Assembly: GCA_038896535.1 (NCBI GenBank)
Contig: JAWACY010000001.1
Span: forward strand, 346,750 to 410,749
DNA from: Candidatus Anstonellales archaeon
GTDB taxonomy: Archaea > Micrarchaeota > Micrarchaeia > Anstonellales > J096
Length of the DNA: 64,000 nucleotides
Direction of reading: 5' to 3'
The number at the start of each line of letters is the position of its first letter. Within the stretch, counting starts at the first letter, position 1. Shown here piece by piece: positions 12,126 to 55,433 of the stretch. The notes beneath the pieces were generated by a model that saw nothing but the letters and a program-made list of their open reading frames with translations, was not told the DNA's origin and did not search any database. A program made the translations under genes and the position numbers.

Positions 12126-12956
12126 ATGCTCTTATTTGGAACAGCAGGCATTCCTTTATCTAGCGAAGGAAATGATACTGTAGCAGGGATAAAAAGGGTA
12201 AAGGAGCTTGGCTTGGGTGCAATGGAGCTGGAATTTGTAAGGAGCGTTTATGTAAAAAGTAATGAAGAAGCAGAGAGAATAAAACAGGAAGCAAAAAAGC
12301 AAAGCATAAGATTAAGCGTTCATGCTCCATACTTCATAAATCTCAATGCTTCAGAAAAAGCTAAATTAGAAGCAAGTAAAAAACGCATTTTAGATAGTGC
12401 AAAAGCAGCCTATTTATGCGGGGCAAATGATATAGCAATTCATTCTGGTTTTTATTTAGGGAATGAAAAATCAGCTGTTTATGAAAAAATAAAGCAGGCT
12501 TATAAAGATATAAGGAAGAAAATGAGAGAAATGGGCATAGATAGCATAATACTCAGGCCAGAAATGATGGGCAAACCAACCCAATTTGCTGATATTGATA
12601 CAATAATAAGGTTATGTAATGATGTTGAAGGATTATTGCCATGTATTGATTACGCCCATTATCAAGCGCTTTATGGAGAAAAAGTAAATAACTATGATGG
12701 CTTTTGTGCATTACTTGATAAAATTAAGGATGGCCTTGGAAAGCAGGCATTAAAAAATATGCATATCCAGTTTTCCGCTGTTGAATATACAGATAAAGGA
12801 GAGAGAAACCACACTACATTTGATGAAGGAACGCTTAGATGGAAAGATATGGTAAAGACATGGAAGCATTATAAAATAGAAGGAATAGCAATAAGTGAAA
12901 GTCCAAATATAGAGGGAGATGCAATAAAAGCGATGTCAGAATATAAAAAGGCATGA
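12126..12956 (+). CDS. nfo: endonuclease IV / AP endonuclease family 2 (TIM barrel)
   Basis: FGTAG.P, SVHAPYFINL, HSGFY, RPEMMGK..QF, PCIDYAH, ISESP. Confidence 0.88.
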   Translation: MLLFGTAGIPLSSEGNDTVAGIKRVKELGLGAMELEFVRSVYVKSNEEAERIKQEAKKQSIRLSVHAPYFINLNASEKAKLEASKKRILDSAKAAYLCGANDIAIHSGFYLGNEKSAVYEKIKQAYKDIRKKMREMGIDSIILRPEMMGKPTQFADIDTIIRLCNDVEGLLPCIDYAHYQALYGEKVNNYDGFCALLDKIKDGLGKQALKNMHIQFSAVEYTDKGERNHTTFDEGTLRWKDMVKTWKHYKIEGIAISESPNIEGDAIKAMSEYKKA

Positions 12957-15539: not shown

Positions 15540-15625
15540 GCAGGGGTCGCCAAGTCTGGTCAAAGGCGCAGGGCTTAGGACCCTGTCCCTTAGTGGGTTC
15601 GTGGGTTCAAATCCCACCCCCTGCA
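15540..15625 (+). tRNA. tRNA-Leu(UAG)
   Basis: GCAGGGG/CCCCTGC acceptor stem, CAGGG-CTTAGGA-CCCTG anticodon arm, long variable arm, GTTCAAATC T-loop; CCA not encoded. Confidence 0.97.
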
Positions 15626-15630
15626 TAGTA

Positions 15631-15770
15631 AGAAGGCAATGCCCTTATATATGCGCCTTCTTACAAACATCCCACCGCTATTATACGCTTGTTGAAGAAG
15701 GCAATGCCCTTATAAACATGCCTTCTTACAATCTTCCAACCCTTATTATAAACTTGTTGGGGAAGGCACT
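15631..15770. repeat. 65-bp imperfect tandem repeat (two units plus the start of a third) with internal inverted repeats
   Basis: Units start at 15631, 15696 and 15761; units 1 and 2 match at 53/65 positions; AGAAGGC...GCCTTCT hairpin in each. Confidence 0.85.
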
Positions 15771-15950
15771 AAATTATTATTGGCTTGTGGAAGGTGGCGA
15801 GTTGGCTAAGAAATCCATTCTTATAATATCTGACATTTTTATCTTCTCCTTATATAATAAAGTCTGAGTTGGAAGGTAAAAGAATATGGAAGTTGGTTGT
15901 GGTAAGTCGGTTGATTAAATTATTGGCAGTTGATAAAGATTAAAGAAAGC

Positions 15951-52199: not shown

Positions 52200-53393
52200 A
52201 TGGTTTCTAATCTTGAAGAACTATTAAACAAAAAAAGCATCATAAAAGACAGGAATGCCTTATCCCCTCATTTTATCCCTGATAATATACTTTATAGAGA
52301 TAGCGAAATAGAGGCAATAGCAAGAACAATAGCCCCTGTATTAAAGCAAGAAAAACCAAAAAATTTATTCATATATGGCAAAACAGGGACAGGAAAAACA
52401 ACATGTGCTAAATATGTAATAAAAAAAGTAAGTGAGGTAAAAGAACGCTATAACGTTAATGCAGAATTTCATTATCTAAATTGCAGGGTTTATGATTCAA
52501 GATATAAAATAATGCAGAATTTCTTGAAAAACTATTATCCAGAAATAGAAAAATCTGGTTTTGGTCTTCCATATTTTTATGAGAAGCTTATCGATGCACT
52601 ATCACAAAATAAATATATTGTATTAGTACTTGATGAAATAGACATAGTTAAAGACCTTGATGAACTTATATATACACTTATAAGAATAAATGATGAAGCA
52701 AAAAATGGTAGCTTATCAATTGTTGGCATATCAAACAAGCTAAGCTTCAAAACAAAACTTGATCCAAGGAGTAGGAGCAGCCTTTATGAGACAGAAATTA
52801 TATTTTCACCATATGATGCTATACAATTGAGGGGCATATTAGAGCAGAGAATAAAGATTGCCTTTGAGCCAAATACAATAGCAGGCAATGCGATAAGCTT
52901 AATATCCGCTATAACTGCTCAAGAAAATGGGGATGCAAGATATGCATTAAAACTTTTACATACTGCTGCTGAAGTTGCAGAGCAAGAAGGCAGCAATATA
53001 GTAGAGGAAAGGCATGTCGAAAATGCAAGAAGGCTCGTTGAATATGACATAGCTGCTGAAGCGATAAAAACATTGCCATTACACCATCAACTTATTCTTT
53101 ATGCGCTGGCAAAGATGACGCTTAACAATAAAAATAGGGCATTAGTTGATGAAGATGGGGGCTATTTCTTTTCTGGCGATCTTTATGATTTCTATACAAA
53201 AATGTGCAGGCAGTTTTATAAAAAACCAAAATCCGCAAGGAGTTATAGAGATTACATAAATGAACTTGAAAGCCTTGGCCTTGTATCGACTGTTTTTACA
53301 AGCAAAGGCATAAGAGGGCATACAAGATTGATAAAGATAGGCCATAATGCAGAAGACATTGTCAATATAATAAATAAAAGATTTGACTTGTAA
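52200..53393 (+). CDS. cdc6: Cdc6/Orc1 replication initiator
   Basis: YGKTGTGKT, YLNC, VLDEID, LDPR..SSL, GDARYAL, C-terminal winged helix. Confidence 0.96.
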   Translation: MVSNLEELLNKKSIIKDRNALSPHFIPDNILYRDSEIEAIARTIAPVLKQEKPKNLFIYGKTGTGKTTCAKYVIKKVSEVKERYNVNAEFHYLNCRVYDSRYKIMQNFLKNYYPEIEKSGFGLPYFYEKLIDALSQNKYIVLVLDEIDIVKDLDELIYTLIRINDEAKNGSLSIVGISNKLSFKTKLDPRSRSSLYETEIIFSPYDAIQLRGILEQRIKIAFEPNTIAGNAISLISAITAQENGDARYALKLLHTAAEVAEQEGSNIVEERHVENARRLVEYDIAAEAIKTLPLHHQLILYALAKMTLNNKNRALVDEDGGYFFSGDLYDFYTKMCRQFYKKPKSARSYRDYINELESLGLVSTVFTSKGIRGHTRLIKIGHNAEDIVNIINKRFDL

Positions 53394-53467
53394 ATTTATT
53401 TGTAAATTTATTTGGTAAATGATAAAAATATGATAAAAATATAAAAAAATTAAAAATAAGCAAGAAA

Positions 53468-53483
53468 CGAAAGGTTTAAATAT
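53468..53483 (+). promoter_or_regulatory. BRE-TATA upstream of the structured RNA candidate
   Basis: CGAAAGGTTTAAATAT about 22-25 nt before the first stem. Confidence 0.6.
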
Positions 53484-53503
53484 TTTACGCTACATATTTA
53501 TTT

Positions 53504-53635
53504 AGGACCAAACTGAAAGGCTGAAAAAAGAACTGGTAACAGTGTTCTGCCCTTTTCAAGGGAAATCCTTGAAATAGGGATCTTGTTTCCCTTCGGGGAA
53601 TCAAGAAGTTAAGCCTTTCGGGGTCAAACTCCTCT
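53504..53635 (+). ncRNA. unidentified structured non-coding RNA (four-way junction)
   Basis: GC-richer island with a closing helix (53506-53522 / 53612-53625) and three hairpins with GUAA, GAAAU and cUUCGg loops; promoter upstream and T-tract at 53641. Confidence 0.7.
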
Positions 53636-53930
53636 TTAAATTTTTTATTTAAATTTTTTATAATCTTAGATGAGCAACTTATTGACAAAGTTCTTGATAT
53701 CTTGATAAAAAGATTATAGAAAAAATATTATACATATATAAAAATATGAGATATGAAAATATTATAAAAATGCAGGGTAAAATATATTGGAGTTAGCAAT
53801 AGGTAATATTTTATATTATCAACAAACTGAAAATAGAATGAGAGAAAGAACGATACAAAAAAGATATTACTACAATATAAGATAAGCTAATAAAGTAAAA
53901 ATTTTTTAACTGTTGGATATAAATTAAATT

Positions 53931-55433
53931 ATGTTTCTTGAACTTGTTGACACGACATTAAGAGATGGAGAGCAGGTTTATGGATTAAGCTATAAAGCAG
54001 AAGAGAAATTTATAATAGGAAGGTTCATACTGGAAAAGTTGAGAATTGATAGGCTCGAATGCGCTAGTGCATTAACTGAGAGCGATAAAAAAGCAGTCAG
54101 CATGCTCTCAACATTTGCAAATGATTATTTAAAAAAGCCTTTTTGTGTTGAAGTGCTGGCATTCTTGAATAAAGAATCAATAGACTGGGCATATGATGCT
54201 GGATGCAGGACTGTTAATATATTGGCAAAGGGCTCTAAGCAGCATTTAACAAAACAACTTAAATTAGATGAAAAGGGGCATAAAGAACTTATAGAATATG
54301 TATTTAATTACGCAAAAGACAGAGAAATGAGAGTAAATATTTACTTAGAAGATGTATCATATGGAATCCAAGAAAACAAGGATTATGTTTATGGTTTACT
54401 GGAATTCCTTGAGGGCCTTGAGCCAAACAGAGTTATGCTTCCAGATACAAGAGGGATTTTATGCCCAAGCCTTGTCAATGATTTATTTAAACCAGTATTA
54501 AAAGAATTTAGCAAACTTATTTTTGATTTTCATGGCCATAACGATTATGGGCTTGCATTGGCAAACAGCATTGAAGCAGCAAACATAGGATTTAACGGTA
54601 TTCATGGGACAATAAATGGCATGGGCGAAAGGACTGGCAATACTCCTTTAGAAGAGCTTATAGTAGCAATAAAGGATTTCACAAAAAGAAGGGTGAATGC
54701 TCAAGAAAAACACTTATATACTGCCAGCTTGATAGTGCAAAAATTCTCAGGAAAAAGTGTAGCTTTCAACAAGCCTATTGTTGGTGAATATGCATTTACA
54801 CACACTGCTGGCATTCATGCGGACGGAGAAAGAAAAGCAGGCCTTTATACATCAAGGCTCAGCCCAGCAAGATTTGGCAGAGAGAAGCAATTTTCAATAG
54901 GAAAATTATCAGGAAAGGCAAATATAAAAGTTGTGCTCGAAGAGCTTGGCATAAATATAAGTGATGAAGAGGCAAAGGTATTAAAAGAGAAAATTTCTAC
55001 ACTTGCCGGAAAGAAATTAATTATATCAGAAGCTGATATCATATATTTATTGGGGGACATAAAGAAAGATAAAAACATAACAAGATTAATTAAAATACAT
55101 GACATAGGCATAGAAAAACAGAATGAAAAATATGTGTGCAAAATGAAAATGTCAATAAAAGAAAATGAAGAAATATTTGAAGAAAAACAGGACAATTTAT
55201 TATTATGTATATTAGAAATAATAAAAAAAGCAAGCAAAAAACACGGTTTTTTTGTTCCTTTTATAGATGGTTATGAGATAGCAGATAATGGAGGGCTTGT
55301 ATTGACAACAATAAAATGTAAGAGCAGGAAAGGAAAAATATTCAAAACATATGGAAATGATAGTGATCTGATAAAATCGTTTGCATCTGCTATTGAAAAG
55401 GCAGTTAACTACGAAAACATTGCTTTAAAATAA
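53931..55433 (+). CDS. cimA: (R)-citramalate synthase / isopropylmalate synthase family (DRE-TIM)
   Basis: DTTLRDGEQ, N.LAKGS..H...QL, NIYLED, LPDT.G, FHGHNDYGLA, GMGERTGN, AGIHADG, GKLSGKA. Confidence 0.75.
   Translation: MFLELVDTTLRDGEQVYGLSYKAEEKFIIGRFILEKLRIDRLECASALTESDKKAVSMLSTFANDYLKKPFCVEVLAFLNKESIDWAYDAGCRTVNILAKGSKQHLTKQLKLDEKGHKELIEYVFNYAKDREMRVNIYLEDVSYGIQENKDYVYGLLEFLEGLEPNRVMLPDTRGILCPSLVNDLFKPVLKEFSKLIFDFHGHNDYGLALANSIEAANIGFNGIHGTINGMGERTGNTPLEELIVAIKDFTKRRVNAQEKHLYTASLIVQKFSGKSVAFNKPIVGEYAFTHTAGIHADGERKAGLYTSRLSPARFGREKQFSIGKLSGKANIKVVLEELGINISDEEAKVLKEKISTLAGKKLIISEADIIYLLGDIKKDKNITRLIKIHDIGIEKQNEKYVCKMKMSIKENEEIFEEKQDNLLLCILEIIKKASKKHGFFVPFIDGYEIADNGGLVLTTIKCKSRKGKIFKTYGNDSDLIKSFASAIEKAVNYENIALK

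What the first reader, a model, noticed from the sequence alone, without database searches (positions are those of the whole stretch)
53468..53650. Candidate novel structured ncRNA transcribed just downstream of cdc6
Seen in sequence: a ~120-nt GC-richer island in very AT-rich DNA folds as a four-way junction. The closing helix is GACC-(AAA bulge)-CUGAAAGGCU (53506-53522) paired with AGCCUUUCGG-GGUC (53612-53625), including a U-G pair. P2 (53529-53548) has a GUAA GNRA loop. P3 (53550-53579) pairs CCCU-UUUCAAGG with CCUUGAAA-U-AGGG around a GAAAU loop. P4 (53581-53606) is capped by cUUCGg. A BRE-TATA (AAAGGTTTAAATA) lies about 25 nt upstream and a T-tract follows at 53641. Established: cUUCGg and GNRA loops and G-U pairs are hallmarks of functional RNA, which favours the + strand. 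I did not find tRNA, SRP or RNase P signature motifs. Inference: a stand-alone ncRNA of unknown family. GAAGUUAAGCC next to the closing helix recalls the 5S rRNA loop B/helix II motif, but the overall fold is not 5S. Alternatives are a cis-regulator of the downstream cimA-carbonic anhydrase-aRF1 genes or an origin-associated element.
Basis: partly seen in the sequence, partly recalled or inferred. Interest (0 to 1): 0.82.

Follow-up and report, generated by a model that had tools for sequence, protein, structure and literature searches.

The report
Orphan four-way-junction RNA gene
A small, tightly folded RNA gene of no known family sits between two housekeeping genes of a tiny hot-spring archaeon, and one sister species keeps the same fold through matching base changes, so it is a real RNA whose job is still unknown.

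Summary
Window 53506-53625 (+) folds exactly as described: a closing helix with an AAA bulge and three hairpins (-52.9 kcal/mol, z -5.7). Rfam gives no family.

A single-sequence covariance model found one full-length homolog, in a sister species (G003, 78 bits). The two are only 60% identical, yet 43 of 43 pairs are kept in both and 15 pairs change on both sides. The G003 copy has different neighbours. In all three other genomes of the genus, cdc6 and cimA abut; only this genome has a 537-bp AT-rich spacer holding the RNA gene. This argues against a cimA leader and against an origin element.

The TATA box lies 31 nt before the first helix, the spacing seen at this genome's 5S and SRP RNA genes. 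A T6 run follows.

It is not RNase P RNA. That RNA is undetectable here, but the genome encodes a protein-only RNase P (HARP).

The helix base has 3-4-3 bulge-helix-bulge geometry like the organism's 16S processing stem. Endonuclease cutting and circularisation are therefore possible but unproven.

The RNA was found in 2 of 151 genomes of the order. Function is unknown and no expression data exist. Verdict: a real, novel, very narrowly distributed structured RNA gene.

The parts
53470..53482 (+). Putative BRE plus TATA box (TTTAAATA at 53475-53482)
   Evidence: Sequence. The TATA starts 31 nt before the first helix base, the same spacing as at this genome's 5S rRNA gene (-31). By my own count on the, 89 sequence it is -30 at the SRP RNA gene. 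This is an inferred promoter; no transcript data exist.
53505..53505 (+). Predicted transcription start (plus or minus 2 nt)
   Evidence: Inferred from the usual archaeal spacing, with the TATA box centred about 26-27 nt upstream (recalled rule; a paper passage gives 26 nt for Thermoproteus). Not measured.
53506..53509 (+). P1a 5' strand (GACC), a 4-bp helix with 53622-53625; candidate central helix of a BHB-like motif
   Evidence: Fold. Kept as GACU/GGUC in G003. BHB scan.
53510..53512 (+). Conserved AAA bulge
   Evidence: identical in G003.
53513..53522 (+). P1b 5' strand, 10 bp with 53612-53621
   Evidence: Three of 10 pairs change on both sides in G003.
53523..53528 (+). A-rich junction strand J1/2 (GAAAA conserved)
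53529..53548 (+). P2 hairpin, GUAA loop (UAA-type loop in G003); apical CUG-UAACAG conserved
   Evidence: (2 of 7 pairs compensatory).
53550..53579 (+). P3 hairpin, 12 bp with a conserved bulged U and an NAAAN pentaloop
   Evidence: (5 of 12 pairs compensatory).
53581..53606 (+). P4 hairpin capped by UUCG. The U-U mismatch in this genome is a G-C pair in G003.
   Evidence: (5 of 10 pairs compensatory).
53607..53611 (+). Junction strand J4/1 (AGUUA), part of the 5S-like word; not conserved in G003
53612..53625 (+). 3' strands of P1b and P1a
53626..53628 (+). AAA (AAU in G003) after the helix; candidate second bulge of a BHB-like motif
   Evidence: The pairing beyond it is only 2 bp (AG/CU here, GG/CC in G003).
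53641..53646 (+). T6 run, likely archaeal terminator
   Evidence: The SRP RNA gene shows a T6 run shortly after its end and the 5S gene a T-rich tract. G003 has no T run of 5 or more there.
53394..53930 (.). 537-bp AT-rich spacer between cdc6 and cimA that carries the RNA gene; present only in this genome
   Evidence: By my arithmetic on the tblastn coordinates, cdc6 and cimA are about 13-37 nt apart in G001 and G002 and G003. The spacer is single-copy in the genome.

Best explanation
This is an independently transcribed gene for a compact, structured, trans-acting small RNA of about 120-140 nt. It belongs to a new and very narrowly distributed family.

Shown: the four-way-junction fold; its conservation by compensatory changes in one sister species; the coding strand; and the absence of any conserved gene neighbour.

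Inferred: it has its own BRE/TATA promoter, with the geometry of this genome's 5S and SRP RNA genes, and an oligo-T terminator. It has been relocated in evolution, because here it lies in a spacer that splits a gene pair that otherwise abuts.

Nearly all conserved unpaired bases are adenosines: the AAA bulge, GAAAA in J1/2, the UAA and AAA loops, and the single A between P3 and P4. The hairpins are capped by stable loops. That pattern fits a tightly packed tertiary fold that binds a protein or ligand. It does not fit an antisense regulator.

Most likely mechanism, inferred with modest confidence: a stable RNP scaffold or protein-binding RNA. Its base carries a 3-nt bulge, 4-bp helix, 3-nt bulge motif, which lets the tRNA-splicing endonuclease trim it. 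RtcB, or the Rnl3-type ligase also encoded here, could then close it into a circle of about 116 nt (53512-53627). That would be a stabilising device in a thermophile. I put the circularisation step alone at about 0.3.
For: Fold:
- -52.9 kcal/mol, z -5.73.
- the G003 copy folds on its own into the same four-way junction, -62 kcal/mol, z -5.03.

Homolog and covariation:
- Model R1, built from this sequence alone, hit G003 full length at 78.2 bits, E 1.2e-18. BLASTN had found nothing there.
- The two copies are identical in 81 of 134 columns.
- 86 of 86 cells pair, and 15 of 43 pairs change on both sides. Zero of 500 shuffles reach this, and slid controls give 0-2 such pairs.
- An alignment made without the model (MAFFT plus RNAalifold) still gives 35 pairs, 9 of them compensatory.
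- Several pairs are G-U in one or both copies; these would be mismatches on the other strand.

Stand-alone gene:
- In G003 the neighbours are a Big_7/CarboxypepD_reg surface protein upstream and Rieske and TtuA-like genes downstream.
- cdc6-cimA abut in G001, G002 and G003.

Promoter geometry:
- The TATA starts at -31, as at the 5S gene. By my count it is -30 at the SRP RNA gene.

BHB-like base:
- My scanner recovers the canonical intron motifs of 4 of 6 intron-bearing tRNAs. The excised lengths match ARAGORN's for Tyr (22) and Ile (25).
- It also recovers a textbook 12-4-12 motif flanking 16S rRNA.
- It finds the same polarity at the base of this RNA in both species: GACC/GGUC with AAA and AAA here, GACU/GGUC with AAA and AAU in G003.
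- The 16S central helix (GGUC/GACU) is the strand-swapped twin of the G003 helix.
- The 2-bp outer pairing changes A-U to G-C between the species.

Enzymes present:
- Two tRNA_int_endo genes, RtcB, and an Rnl3-type ligase next to HARP.
- Papers: passages of PMC4090602 and PMC3239211 define the 3-4-3 motif. Passages of PMC4731332 and PMC7714728 show such motifs yielding circular non-tRNA RNAs.
Against: - No transcript evidence: no RNA run is available.
- There are only two family members, so covariation rests on one species pair. The alignment was fitted to the model.
- Two of the four genus genomes (G001 and G002, each 88% complete) show no copy by model or pattern. That is odd for an essential RNP RNA.
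- The BHB reading is weak in one defining part. The outer helix is only 2 bp, and two chance pairs have probability about 0.14. The predicted start at about 53505 would leave at most 1-2 nt of it in the transcript.
- RNAfold does not predict the outer pairing. In G003 it prefers a different 4-bp closure.
- The same scanner also finds a BHB-like geometry inside the SRP RNA that is unlikely to be used, so false positives occur.
- The 5S and SRP RNA genes share the promoter and terminator layout but have no such motif at their base.
- No protein partner is identified.
Confidence: 0.55

Rival explanations
1. It is a selfish or accessory RNA element, for example an escaped archaeal BHB intron, a small mobile cargo, or a novel self-cleaving ribozyme. 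It moves between loci and has no core cellular role.
For: - Patchy distribution: 2 of 4 genus genomes, 2 of 19 in the family and 2 of 151 in the order.
- Different loci in the two species.
- Here it lies in a 537-bp insertion into an otherwise tight cdc6-cimA junction.
- The base is BHB-like.
- The cdc6 stop sits in the first of three tandem 12-nt units.
- An imperfect 26-nt AT-rich inverted repeat flanks the promoter and RNA (I1).
Against: - It is single-copy in the genome.
- The inverted repeat is low-complexity AT (81% match) and there is no clear target-site duplication.
- No transposase, integrase or homing endonuclease lies nearby.
- No match in phage or plasmid records, and none confirmed among 26 viral contigs picked by pattern.
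- It has a proper promoter. Strong purifying selection on the structure across about 40% sequence divergence suggests a function.
Confidence: 0.15
2. It is a cis-acting 5' leader, riboswitch or attenuator controlling the downstream genes (cimA, carbonic anhydrase, aRF1).
For: - In both species it lies upstream of, and on the same strand as, protein genes: 305 nt before cimA here and about 170 nt before a Rieske gene in G003.
- G003 has no T run of 5 or more after it.
- A T6 run just after a structured domain is what an archaeal attenuator could look like.
Against: - The downstream genes are unrelated in the two species.
- G001, G002 and G003 express cimA directly behind cdc6 without this RNA.
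- About 285 nt of 10-25% GC spacer follow the RNA, and TATA-like boxes sit about 28-30 nt before the ATG of cimA and of the G003 Rieske gene. Both genes therefore have their own likely promoters.
- No riboswitch family matches.
Confidence: 0.07
3. It is a DNA-level feature of the replication origin next to cdc6, or a chance cluster of palindromes.
For: It lies in a long AT-rich spacer beside the only cdc6/orc1 gene, and the spacer has short AT-rich direct repeats.
Against: - Compensatory changes and G-U pairs indicate selection on one RNA strand.
- The G003 copy is on a contig without cdc6.
- The spacer is absent from 3 of 3 other genus members.
- Zero of 200 shuffles fold as well.
Confidence: 0.03
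4. It is a very divergent or reduced form of a known universal RNA: RNase P RNA, 5S rRNA, SRP RNA or a disrupted tRNA.
For: - RNase P RNA is not detectable in this genome or genus, and relatives' RNase P RNAs are already short at 179-241 nt.
- The word GAAGUUAAGCC resembles this genome's own 5S.
- The overall outline is cloverleaf-like.
Against: - The relatives' short RNase P RNAs all keep the CR-I to CR-V words, and this RNA has none of them.
- The genome encodes a full-length HARP protein-only RNase P: 173.8 bits to PIN_5 and E 2e-41 to solved 'RNA-free ribonuclease P' chains.
- Pop5, Rpp30 and Rpp29 are not detected.
- There is no synteny with the RNase P RNA loci of 5 relatives.
- 5S (73.1 bits) and SRP RNA (75.8 bits) are found elsewhere.
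- 43 tRNAs cover all 20 amino acids, and there is no T-loop here.
- The 5S-like word is not conserved in G003.
Confidence: 0.02

Closest known systems
BHB-processed, circularised non-tRNA RNAs of archaea: pre-16S/23S rRNA circles, the permuted SRP RNA of Thermoproteus, and the 5'UTR intron of Haloferax HVO_1309
   Same: - A 4-bp helix is flanked by 3-nt bulges in the correct polarity at the base of a structured RNA.
- The helix has the same sequence as this organism's own 16S processing motif, strand-swapped.
- The endonuclease and RtcB are encoded.
- Passages of PMC4731332 and PMC7714728 show that such motifs release circular RNAs.
   Different: - Those RNAs have long outer helices or leaders (12 bp at this genome's 16S; a 23-nt leader in Thermoproteus). 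Here the outer pairing is 2 bp and the predicted leader is almost nil.
- Those RNAs have known functions. This one has none, and its cleavage is untested.
GC-rich structural RNA genes in AT-rich thermophiles (the Hgc RNAs found by GC-content screens; recalled from Klein, Misulovin and Eddy 2002, not read here)
   Same: It is a GC-richer island in AT-rich intergenic DNA of a hot-spring organism, with its own promoter, a stable fold and no known function.
   Different: There is no sequence or structure match to any Rfam family, which to my recollection include Hgc families. This RNA is far more narrowly distributed: 2 species.
5S rRNA
   Same: - About 120 nt.
- Same TATA spacing, and a T-rich tract after the gene.
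- A shared GAAG-UAAGCC word next to a purine-rich/pyrimidine-rich helix in this genome.
   Different: - It is a four-way junction with three short-loop hairpins, not the 5S three-way junction.
- The 5S model does not score it.
- The word is not kept in G003.
- A normal 5S gene exists.
Four-way-junction riboswitches and self-cleaving ribozymes (hairpin, twister-sister, SAM-I, yybP-type; shapes recalled, not tested beyond Rfam)
   Same: Similar size, four-helix junction, A-rich junction strands, patchy distribution.
   Different: None of their Rfam models matches at E up to 10. The helices here lack the conserved internal loops these families need. No cleavage or ligand is known.

Membership tests
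Any Rfam 15 family (4227 models) | Bit score at or above the family's gathering threshold | tested here: not met
   (whole window): only 3 tRNAs elsewhere. (53350-53750, E up to 10): 7 weak rows. The best is E 0.48, on the minus strand of the AT-rich flank. All are far below their thresholds.
Archaeal RNase P RNA | Conserved regions CR-I to CR-V and the P4 long-range helix | tested here: not met
   RF00373 and RF02357 find nothing in the genome at E up to 10. Relatives' 179-241-nt RNAs keep GAGGAA-UCC, ACAGAAACG, GAUGAAACG, GAAUGC and ACAGAA-GG-UA. None of these is in the candidate, and a motif scan of the genome found no GC-rich candidate.
Archaeal RNase P RNA | Partner proteins (Pop5, Rpp30, Rpp29, Rpp21) encoded | tested here: not met
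   Pop5 is in 0 of 19 family genomes against 22 of 22 in the other families. Rpp30 is in 0 of 19. Rpp29 is not found in G000. Rpr2 gives only sub-threshold hits, 16.5 bits against a cut-off of 29.3. HARP is present instead.
5S rRNA | Three-way junction with loops A-E, scored by RF00001 | tested here: not met
   The true 5S is at G000:C2:170234-170349, 73.1 bits. The candidate gives no 5S row at E up to 10 and folds as a four-way junction.
tRNA (including intron-bearing or permuted) | 7-bp acceptor stem, T-loop GUUCRANYC, anticodon arm | tested here: not met
   ARAGORN and RF00005 find nothing at the locus. There is no T-loop word in the sequence. 43 tRNAs cover all 20 amino acids.
Splicing-endonuclease substrate (hBHBh' motif) | Central 4-bp helix flanked by two 3-nt bulges on opposite strands, each 3' of its helix strand | tested here: met
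   met in both species. The scanner's polarity was checked on tRNA introns and on the 16S processing stem. The definition comes from passages of PMC4090602, PMC3239211 and PMC4731332.
Splicing-endonuclease substrate (hBHBh' motif) | Flanking helices h and h' on both sides | tested here: inconclusive
   The inner helix is 10-11 bp. The outer helix is only 2 bp, with one compensatory change. It is not in the MFE fold and may lie at or before the predicted start. Relaxed motifs are cut by some enzyme types (passage of PMC3239211). The type of this organism's enzyme was not determined; there are two tRNA_int_endo genes, of 362 and 181 aa.
Splicing-endonuclease substrate (hBHBh' motif) | Observed cleavage or a circular junction | not testable with these tools
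   No RNA run is listed for this DNA.
Riboswitch or cis-regulatory leader | Conserved linkage to the regulated gene or pathway | tested here: not met
   The downstream genes differ: cimA-type here, Rieske/TtuA-like in G003. Three genus members have cimA without it.
Replication-origin element | Conserved position beside cdc6/orc1 | tested here: not met
   The G003 copy is on another contig than cdc6. The spacer is absent in G001-G003.
C/D-box or H/ACA guide sRNA | Conserved C/D boxes with a K-turn, or a pseudouridylation pocket plus ACA | tested here: not met
   By inspection of the two-species alignment. The only CUGA is GUGG in G003. There is no RUGAUGA, no ACA after the stem (AAAC / AAUC), and no large internal loops.
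MITE or IS-type mobile element | Multiple copies, terminal inverted repeats, target-site duplication | tested here: not met
   It is single-copy. Only an 81%-matching AT-rich inverted repeat was found.

The most novel reading that the evidence does not exclude
It is a dedicated gene whose only product is a structured RNA of about 116 nt, cut out at a minimal bulge-helix-bulge motif by the tRNA-splicing endonuclease and closed into a circle. That would be a free-standing 'intron without a host gene' that has hopped between loci within one genus of hot-spring nano-archaea and acts as a heat-stable protein-binding or catalytic RNA. It would be the first stand-alone circular-RNA gene family of unknown function in such organisms.
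Probability: 0.2. Interest if true: 0.75.

Novelty: new variant of a known kind. Interest (0 to 1): 0.52.

Why it matters
Tiny symbiotic archaea have shed most non-essential genes. A well-promoted, strongly structured RNA kept under selection in a 0.75-Mb genome is therefore likely to do something.

It belongs to no curated RNA family. If it is cut and circularised at its base, it extends the list of RNAs that borrow the tRNA-splicing machinery.

The narrow distribution (two species) and the lack of expression data limit what can be claimed now.

The side observation may matter more to specialists. This lineage appears to have replaced the RNase P ribonucleoprotein by the protein-only HARP enzyme. 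A 2019 survey (passages of PMC6380272) reported no such case for any archaeon and no HARP in any DPANN genome.

Tried and rejected
RNase P RNA idea. It was prompted by the missing RNase P RNA. I rejected it after seeing the conserved words in relatives' RNAs, a motif scan, the missing RNP proteins, the HARP gene, and the lack of synteny with the RNase P RNA loci of 5 relatives.

5S-derived idea. Rejected.

More homologs. All of these searches gave nothing new:
- BLASTN in 40 relatives: only short chance matches.
- R1 on the cdc6-downstream loci of 29 relatives: 0 hits at E up to 10.
- R2 on 19 family genomes and on 151 order genomes: the same 2 hits each.
- R2 on G001 and G002 at E up to 10: 0 hits.
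- An end-motif pattern in G001-G003: only the known G003 copy.
- Metagenome contigs, first pattern: 0.
- Metagenome contigs, second pattern: 52 loci, 0 confirmed by R2 at E up to 1.
- Species genomes by pattern: only the G003 contig.
- Viral contigs by pattern: 26 loci, with only two 15.7-bit partial rows at E 0.34.
- Phage and plasmid records: no match.

Expression. No RNA holder is listed. Contigs of 4 further DNA runs (2 studies) carry the stretch with no differing letters over the RNA, so there is no population variation to use.

BHB motifs elsewhere. None at the base of 5S or SRP RNA, and one implausible internal hit in SRP RNA. None convincing in 14 other GC-rich intergenic islands. Those islands and two tRNA-flank arrays gave no Rfam hit at E up to 0.1 and only weak R2 rows of 11 bits or less.

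Spacer repeats. The 537-bp spacer matches only AT-rich low-complexity DNA elsewhere in the genome.

Other. The minus-strand ORF 53485-53688 (67 aa) has no Pfam hit and no counterpart in G003. Supplementary files of the papers were not opened. The HARP genome lists in the supplements of PMC12153264 and PMC6380272 could bear on whether HARP-only archaea are already recorded.
Full report
WHAT IS THERE

The window is G000:C1:346750-410749 of a 751,790-bp, 5-contig, 32% GC archaeal genome. It is 91% complete. Runs labelled hot-springs metagenome hold this DNA.

Between a Cdc6/Orc1 gene (52200-53393) and a cimA-type HMGL-like gene (53931-55433) lies a 537-bp spacer of 10-25% GC. Inside it is a 38-43% GC island.

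- P1a, 53506-53509 with 53622-53625
- an AAA bulge
- P1b, 53513-53522 with 53612-53621
- P2, 53529-53548 (GUAA loop)
- P3, 53550-53579 (GAAAU loop, bulged U)
- P4, 53581-53606 (UUCG loop)

The MFE is -52.9 kcal/mol and z is -5.73; 0 of 200 shuffles fold as well. The opposite strand is weaker (z -3.9).

IS IT A KNOWN RNA?

No. Rfam at gathering thresholds finds only three tRNAs elsewhere in the window. A permissive scan of 53350-53750 lists seven chance-level rows, the best at E 0.48. ARAGORN finds nothing at the locus.

The genome has a normal 5S rRNA, an SRP RNA, and 43 tRNAs covering all 20 amino acids.

IS THE STRUCTURE CONSERVED?

BLASTN of the 133-nt stretch against 40 relatives found only short chance matches. 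A covariance model built from this one sequence and its MFE structure (R1) found a single full-length hit among 41 genomes. It is G003:C47:4697-4827(-), in the same genus, at 78.2 bits and E 1.2e-18.

The two copies are identical in 81 of 134 columns. Even so:
- All 43 modelled pairs are standard pairs in both copies.
- 15 pairs differ on both sides and 6 on one side.
- No shuffle out of 500 reaches these values, and sliding the partners by 1-3 columns leaves 0-2 compensatory pairs.

That alignment was fitted to the model. An independent MAFFT plus RNAalifold run still gives 35 pairs, 9 of them compensatory. The G003 sequence folded alone gives the same four-way junction (-62 kcal/mol, z -5.03).

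The G-U pairs fix the + strand as the functional one. The U-U mismatch in P4 of this genome is a G-C pair in G003, so P4 is a plain 11-bp hairpin.

The conserved unpaired bases are almost all adenosines.

CONTEXT

In G003 the RNA lies between a Big_7/CarboxypepD_reg surface protein and Rieske plus TtuA-like genes. The TtuA ortholog in this genome is elsewhere, at C1:387184-388077.

Conversely, cdc6 and cimA are separated by only about 13-37 nt in G001 and G002 and in G003. The 537-bp spacer with the RNA gene is therefore peculiar to this genome.

The spacer is single-copy. It has only low-complexity AT-rich repeats, including an 81%-matching 26-nt inverted repeat around the promoter plus RNA. 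The cdc6 stop codon lies in the first of three tandem 12-nt units, 53388-53423.

These facts argue against a conserved cis-regulator of cimA and against an origin-bound element. They show the gene has changed place within the genus.

PROMOTER AND TERMINATOR (INFERRED)

TTTAAATA starts 31 nt before the first helix base. The 5S gene has TTTAAAAA at -31. By my count on the printed sequence, the SRP RNA gene has TTTAAAAG at -30.

A T6 run follows 16 nt after the helix. The SRP RNA gene has a T6 run at a similar distance and the 5S gene has a T-rich tract after its end.

cimA has its own TATA-like box about 28 nt before its ATG, and so does the G003 Rieske gene. No transcript data exist.

DISTRIBUTION

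With the two-sequence model R2, the RNA is found in 2 of 19 family genomes and 2 of 151 order genomes. It is not found in G001 or G002 even at E up to 10 or by an end-motif pattern.

Pattern scans of metagenome, species-genome and viral collections, followed by model checks, gave no further member. Neither did phage or plasmid records.

THE RNase P DETOUR

RNase P RNA is undetectable in this genome and in all 13 genomes of genera g1, g4 and g5. It is found in the 28 other relatives, sometimes only 179-241 nt long. I therefore tested whether the candidate is an extreme reduction.

It is not:
- The short RNAs of relatives keep all the conserved words, and the candidate has none.
- There is no synteny with the RNase P RNA loci of five relatives.
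- The genome encodes a full-length PIN_5 protein (173.8 bits). It matches solved 'RNA-free ribonuclease P' (HARP) chains at E 2e-41.
- Pop5 is absent from 19 of 19 family genomes but present in 22 of 22 others. Rpp30 and Rpp29 are not found.

HARP is present in 13 of 13 genomes that lack the RNA, and the 23 genomes without HARP all have the RNA.

HOW MIGHT IT BE MADE AND WORK?

The base of the closing stem has the geometry of a bulge-helix-bulge motif. A 4-bp helix carries a 3-nt bulge on each strand, each bulge 3' of its helix strand. Passages of PMC4090602, PMC3239211 and PMC4731332 give this definition.

A simple scanner I wrote recovers:
- the canonical motifs of 4 of 6 intron-bearing tRNAs here, with excised lengths equal to ARAGORN's for Tyr and Ile;
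- a textbook motif (12-bp, 4-bp and 12-bp helices) around 16S rRNA;
- the motif at the base of this RNA in both species.

The 16S central helix is the strand-swapped twin of the G003 helix. The 2-bp outer pairing changes from A-U to G-C between the species. Two endonuclease-family genes, RtcB and an Rnl3-type ligase are encoded. Cutting inside both bulges would release 116 nt (53512-53627), which could be circularised. This is known for rRNA precursors, a Haloferax 5'UTR intron and the Thermoproteus SRP RNA (passages of PMC7714728 and PMC4731332).

Against this reading:
- The outer helix is only 2 bp, with a chance probability of about 0.14.
- The predicted start leaves almost no leader.
- The MFE folds do not contain the outer helix.
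- The scanner also flags an implausible site inside the SRP RNA.
- 5S and SRP RNA, with the same gene layout, lack the motif.

I therefore rate circularisation at about 0.3.

The A-rich conserved junctions and the capped hairpins point to a compact tertiary fold that binds a protein or ligand. They do not point to a base-pairing regulator. This is inference only.

VERDICT

This is a real, independently promoted, structured RNA gene of a new family, so far seen in two species of one genus. It has relocated within that genus. Its function is unknown.

Noticed in passing
G000:C3:41917-42453 (outside the window) and relatives G001-G018: This small-genome archaeon and all 13 genomes of genera g1, g4 and g5 lack a detectable RNase P RNA and Pop5/Rpp30. 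All 13 encode a HARP-type protein-only RNase P. The 23 relatives without HARP all have the RNA. Passages of a 2019 survey (PMC6380272) say HARP was absent from all DPANN genomes and never occurred in archaea without RNP proteins. I did not verify this organism's phylum.
   Followed up: partly
G000:C3, locus L133 1492-2040 and 2037-3089: The HARP gene is followed on the same strand, overlapping by 4 nt, by an Rnl3-type RNA ligase (RNA_ligase plus Lig_C/Pab1020 C-terminal domain). A section of PMC12153264 calls this tandem arrangement rare (10 instances).
   Followed up: partly
window 15626-15913 (after tRNA-Leu 15540-15625) and 16 other clusters genome-wide: Tandem arrays of a 10-bp-stem hairpin with a loop of about 14-18 nt, in units of about 48 or 66 nt. 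In about a dozen cases they start 3-4 nt after the 3' end of a tRNA gene. There are 63 copies in this genome and none in 40 relatives, including the same genus. There is no Rfam match. The spacers repeat, so it is not CRISPR.
   Followed up: partly
G000:C1:324885-324985, minus strand (outside the window): A probable tRNA-Pro(GGG) that ARAGORN missed. It has a 7-bp acceptor stem and a T-stem enclosing a loop of about 26 nt with a small hairpin, which suggests a non-canonical T-loop intron. This would imply a splicing endonuclease with relaxed specificity.
   Followed up: no
G000:C1:10785-10791 with 12353-12359 (outside the window): A textbook bulge-helix-bulge motif (12-bp outer helix, 4-bp helix, 12-bp inner helix) in the 16S rRNA processing stem.
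   Followed up: partly
G000:C2:43230-43430 (outside the window): Three copies of a 37-nt repeat separated by unique spacers of about 36-39 nt. It looks like a small CRISPR array.
   Followed up: no
G000:C2:48000-48140, C2:108540-108620, C1:1350-1420 (outside the window): ORF-free intergenic tracts made of G-rich GGGTT/GGGAT-like short repeats. No Rfam match.
   Followed up: no
window 53388-53423: Three tandem 12-nt units (two identical, one diverged). The first contains the cdc6 stop codon, at the upstream edge of the spacer that carries the RNA gene.
   Followed up: no
G000:C2:154171-154324, tRNA-Met: An unusually long intron: 64 nt by ARAGORN, 79 nt by the BHB scan. It contains C-box-like and D-box-like words and may hold a guide sRNA.
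   Followed up: no
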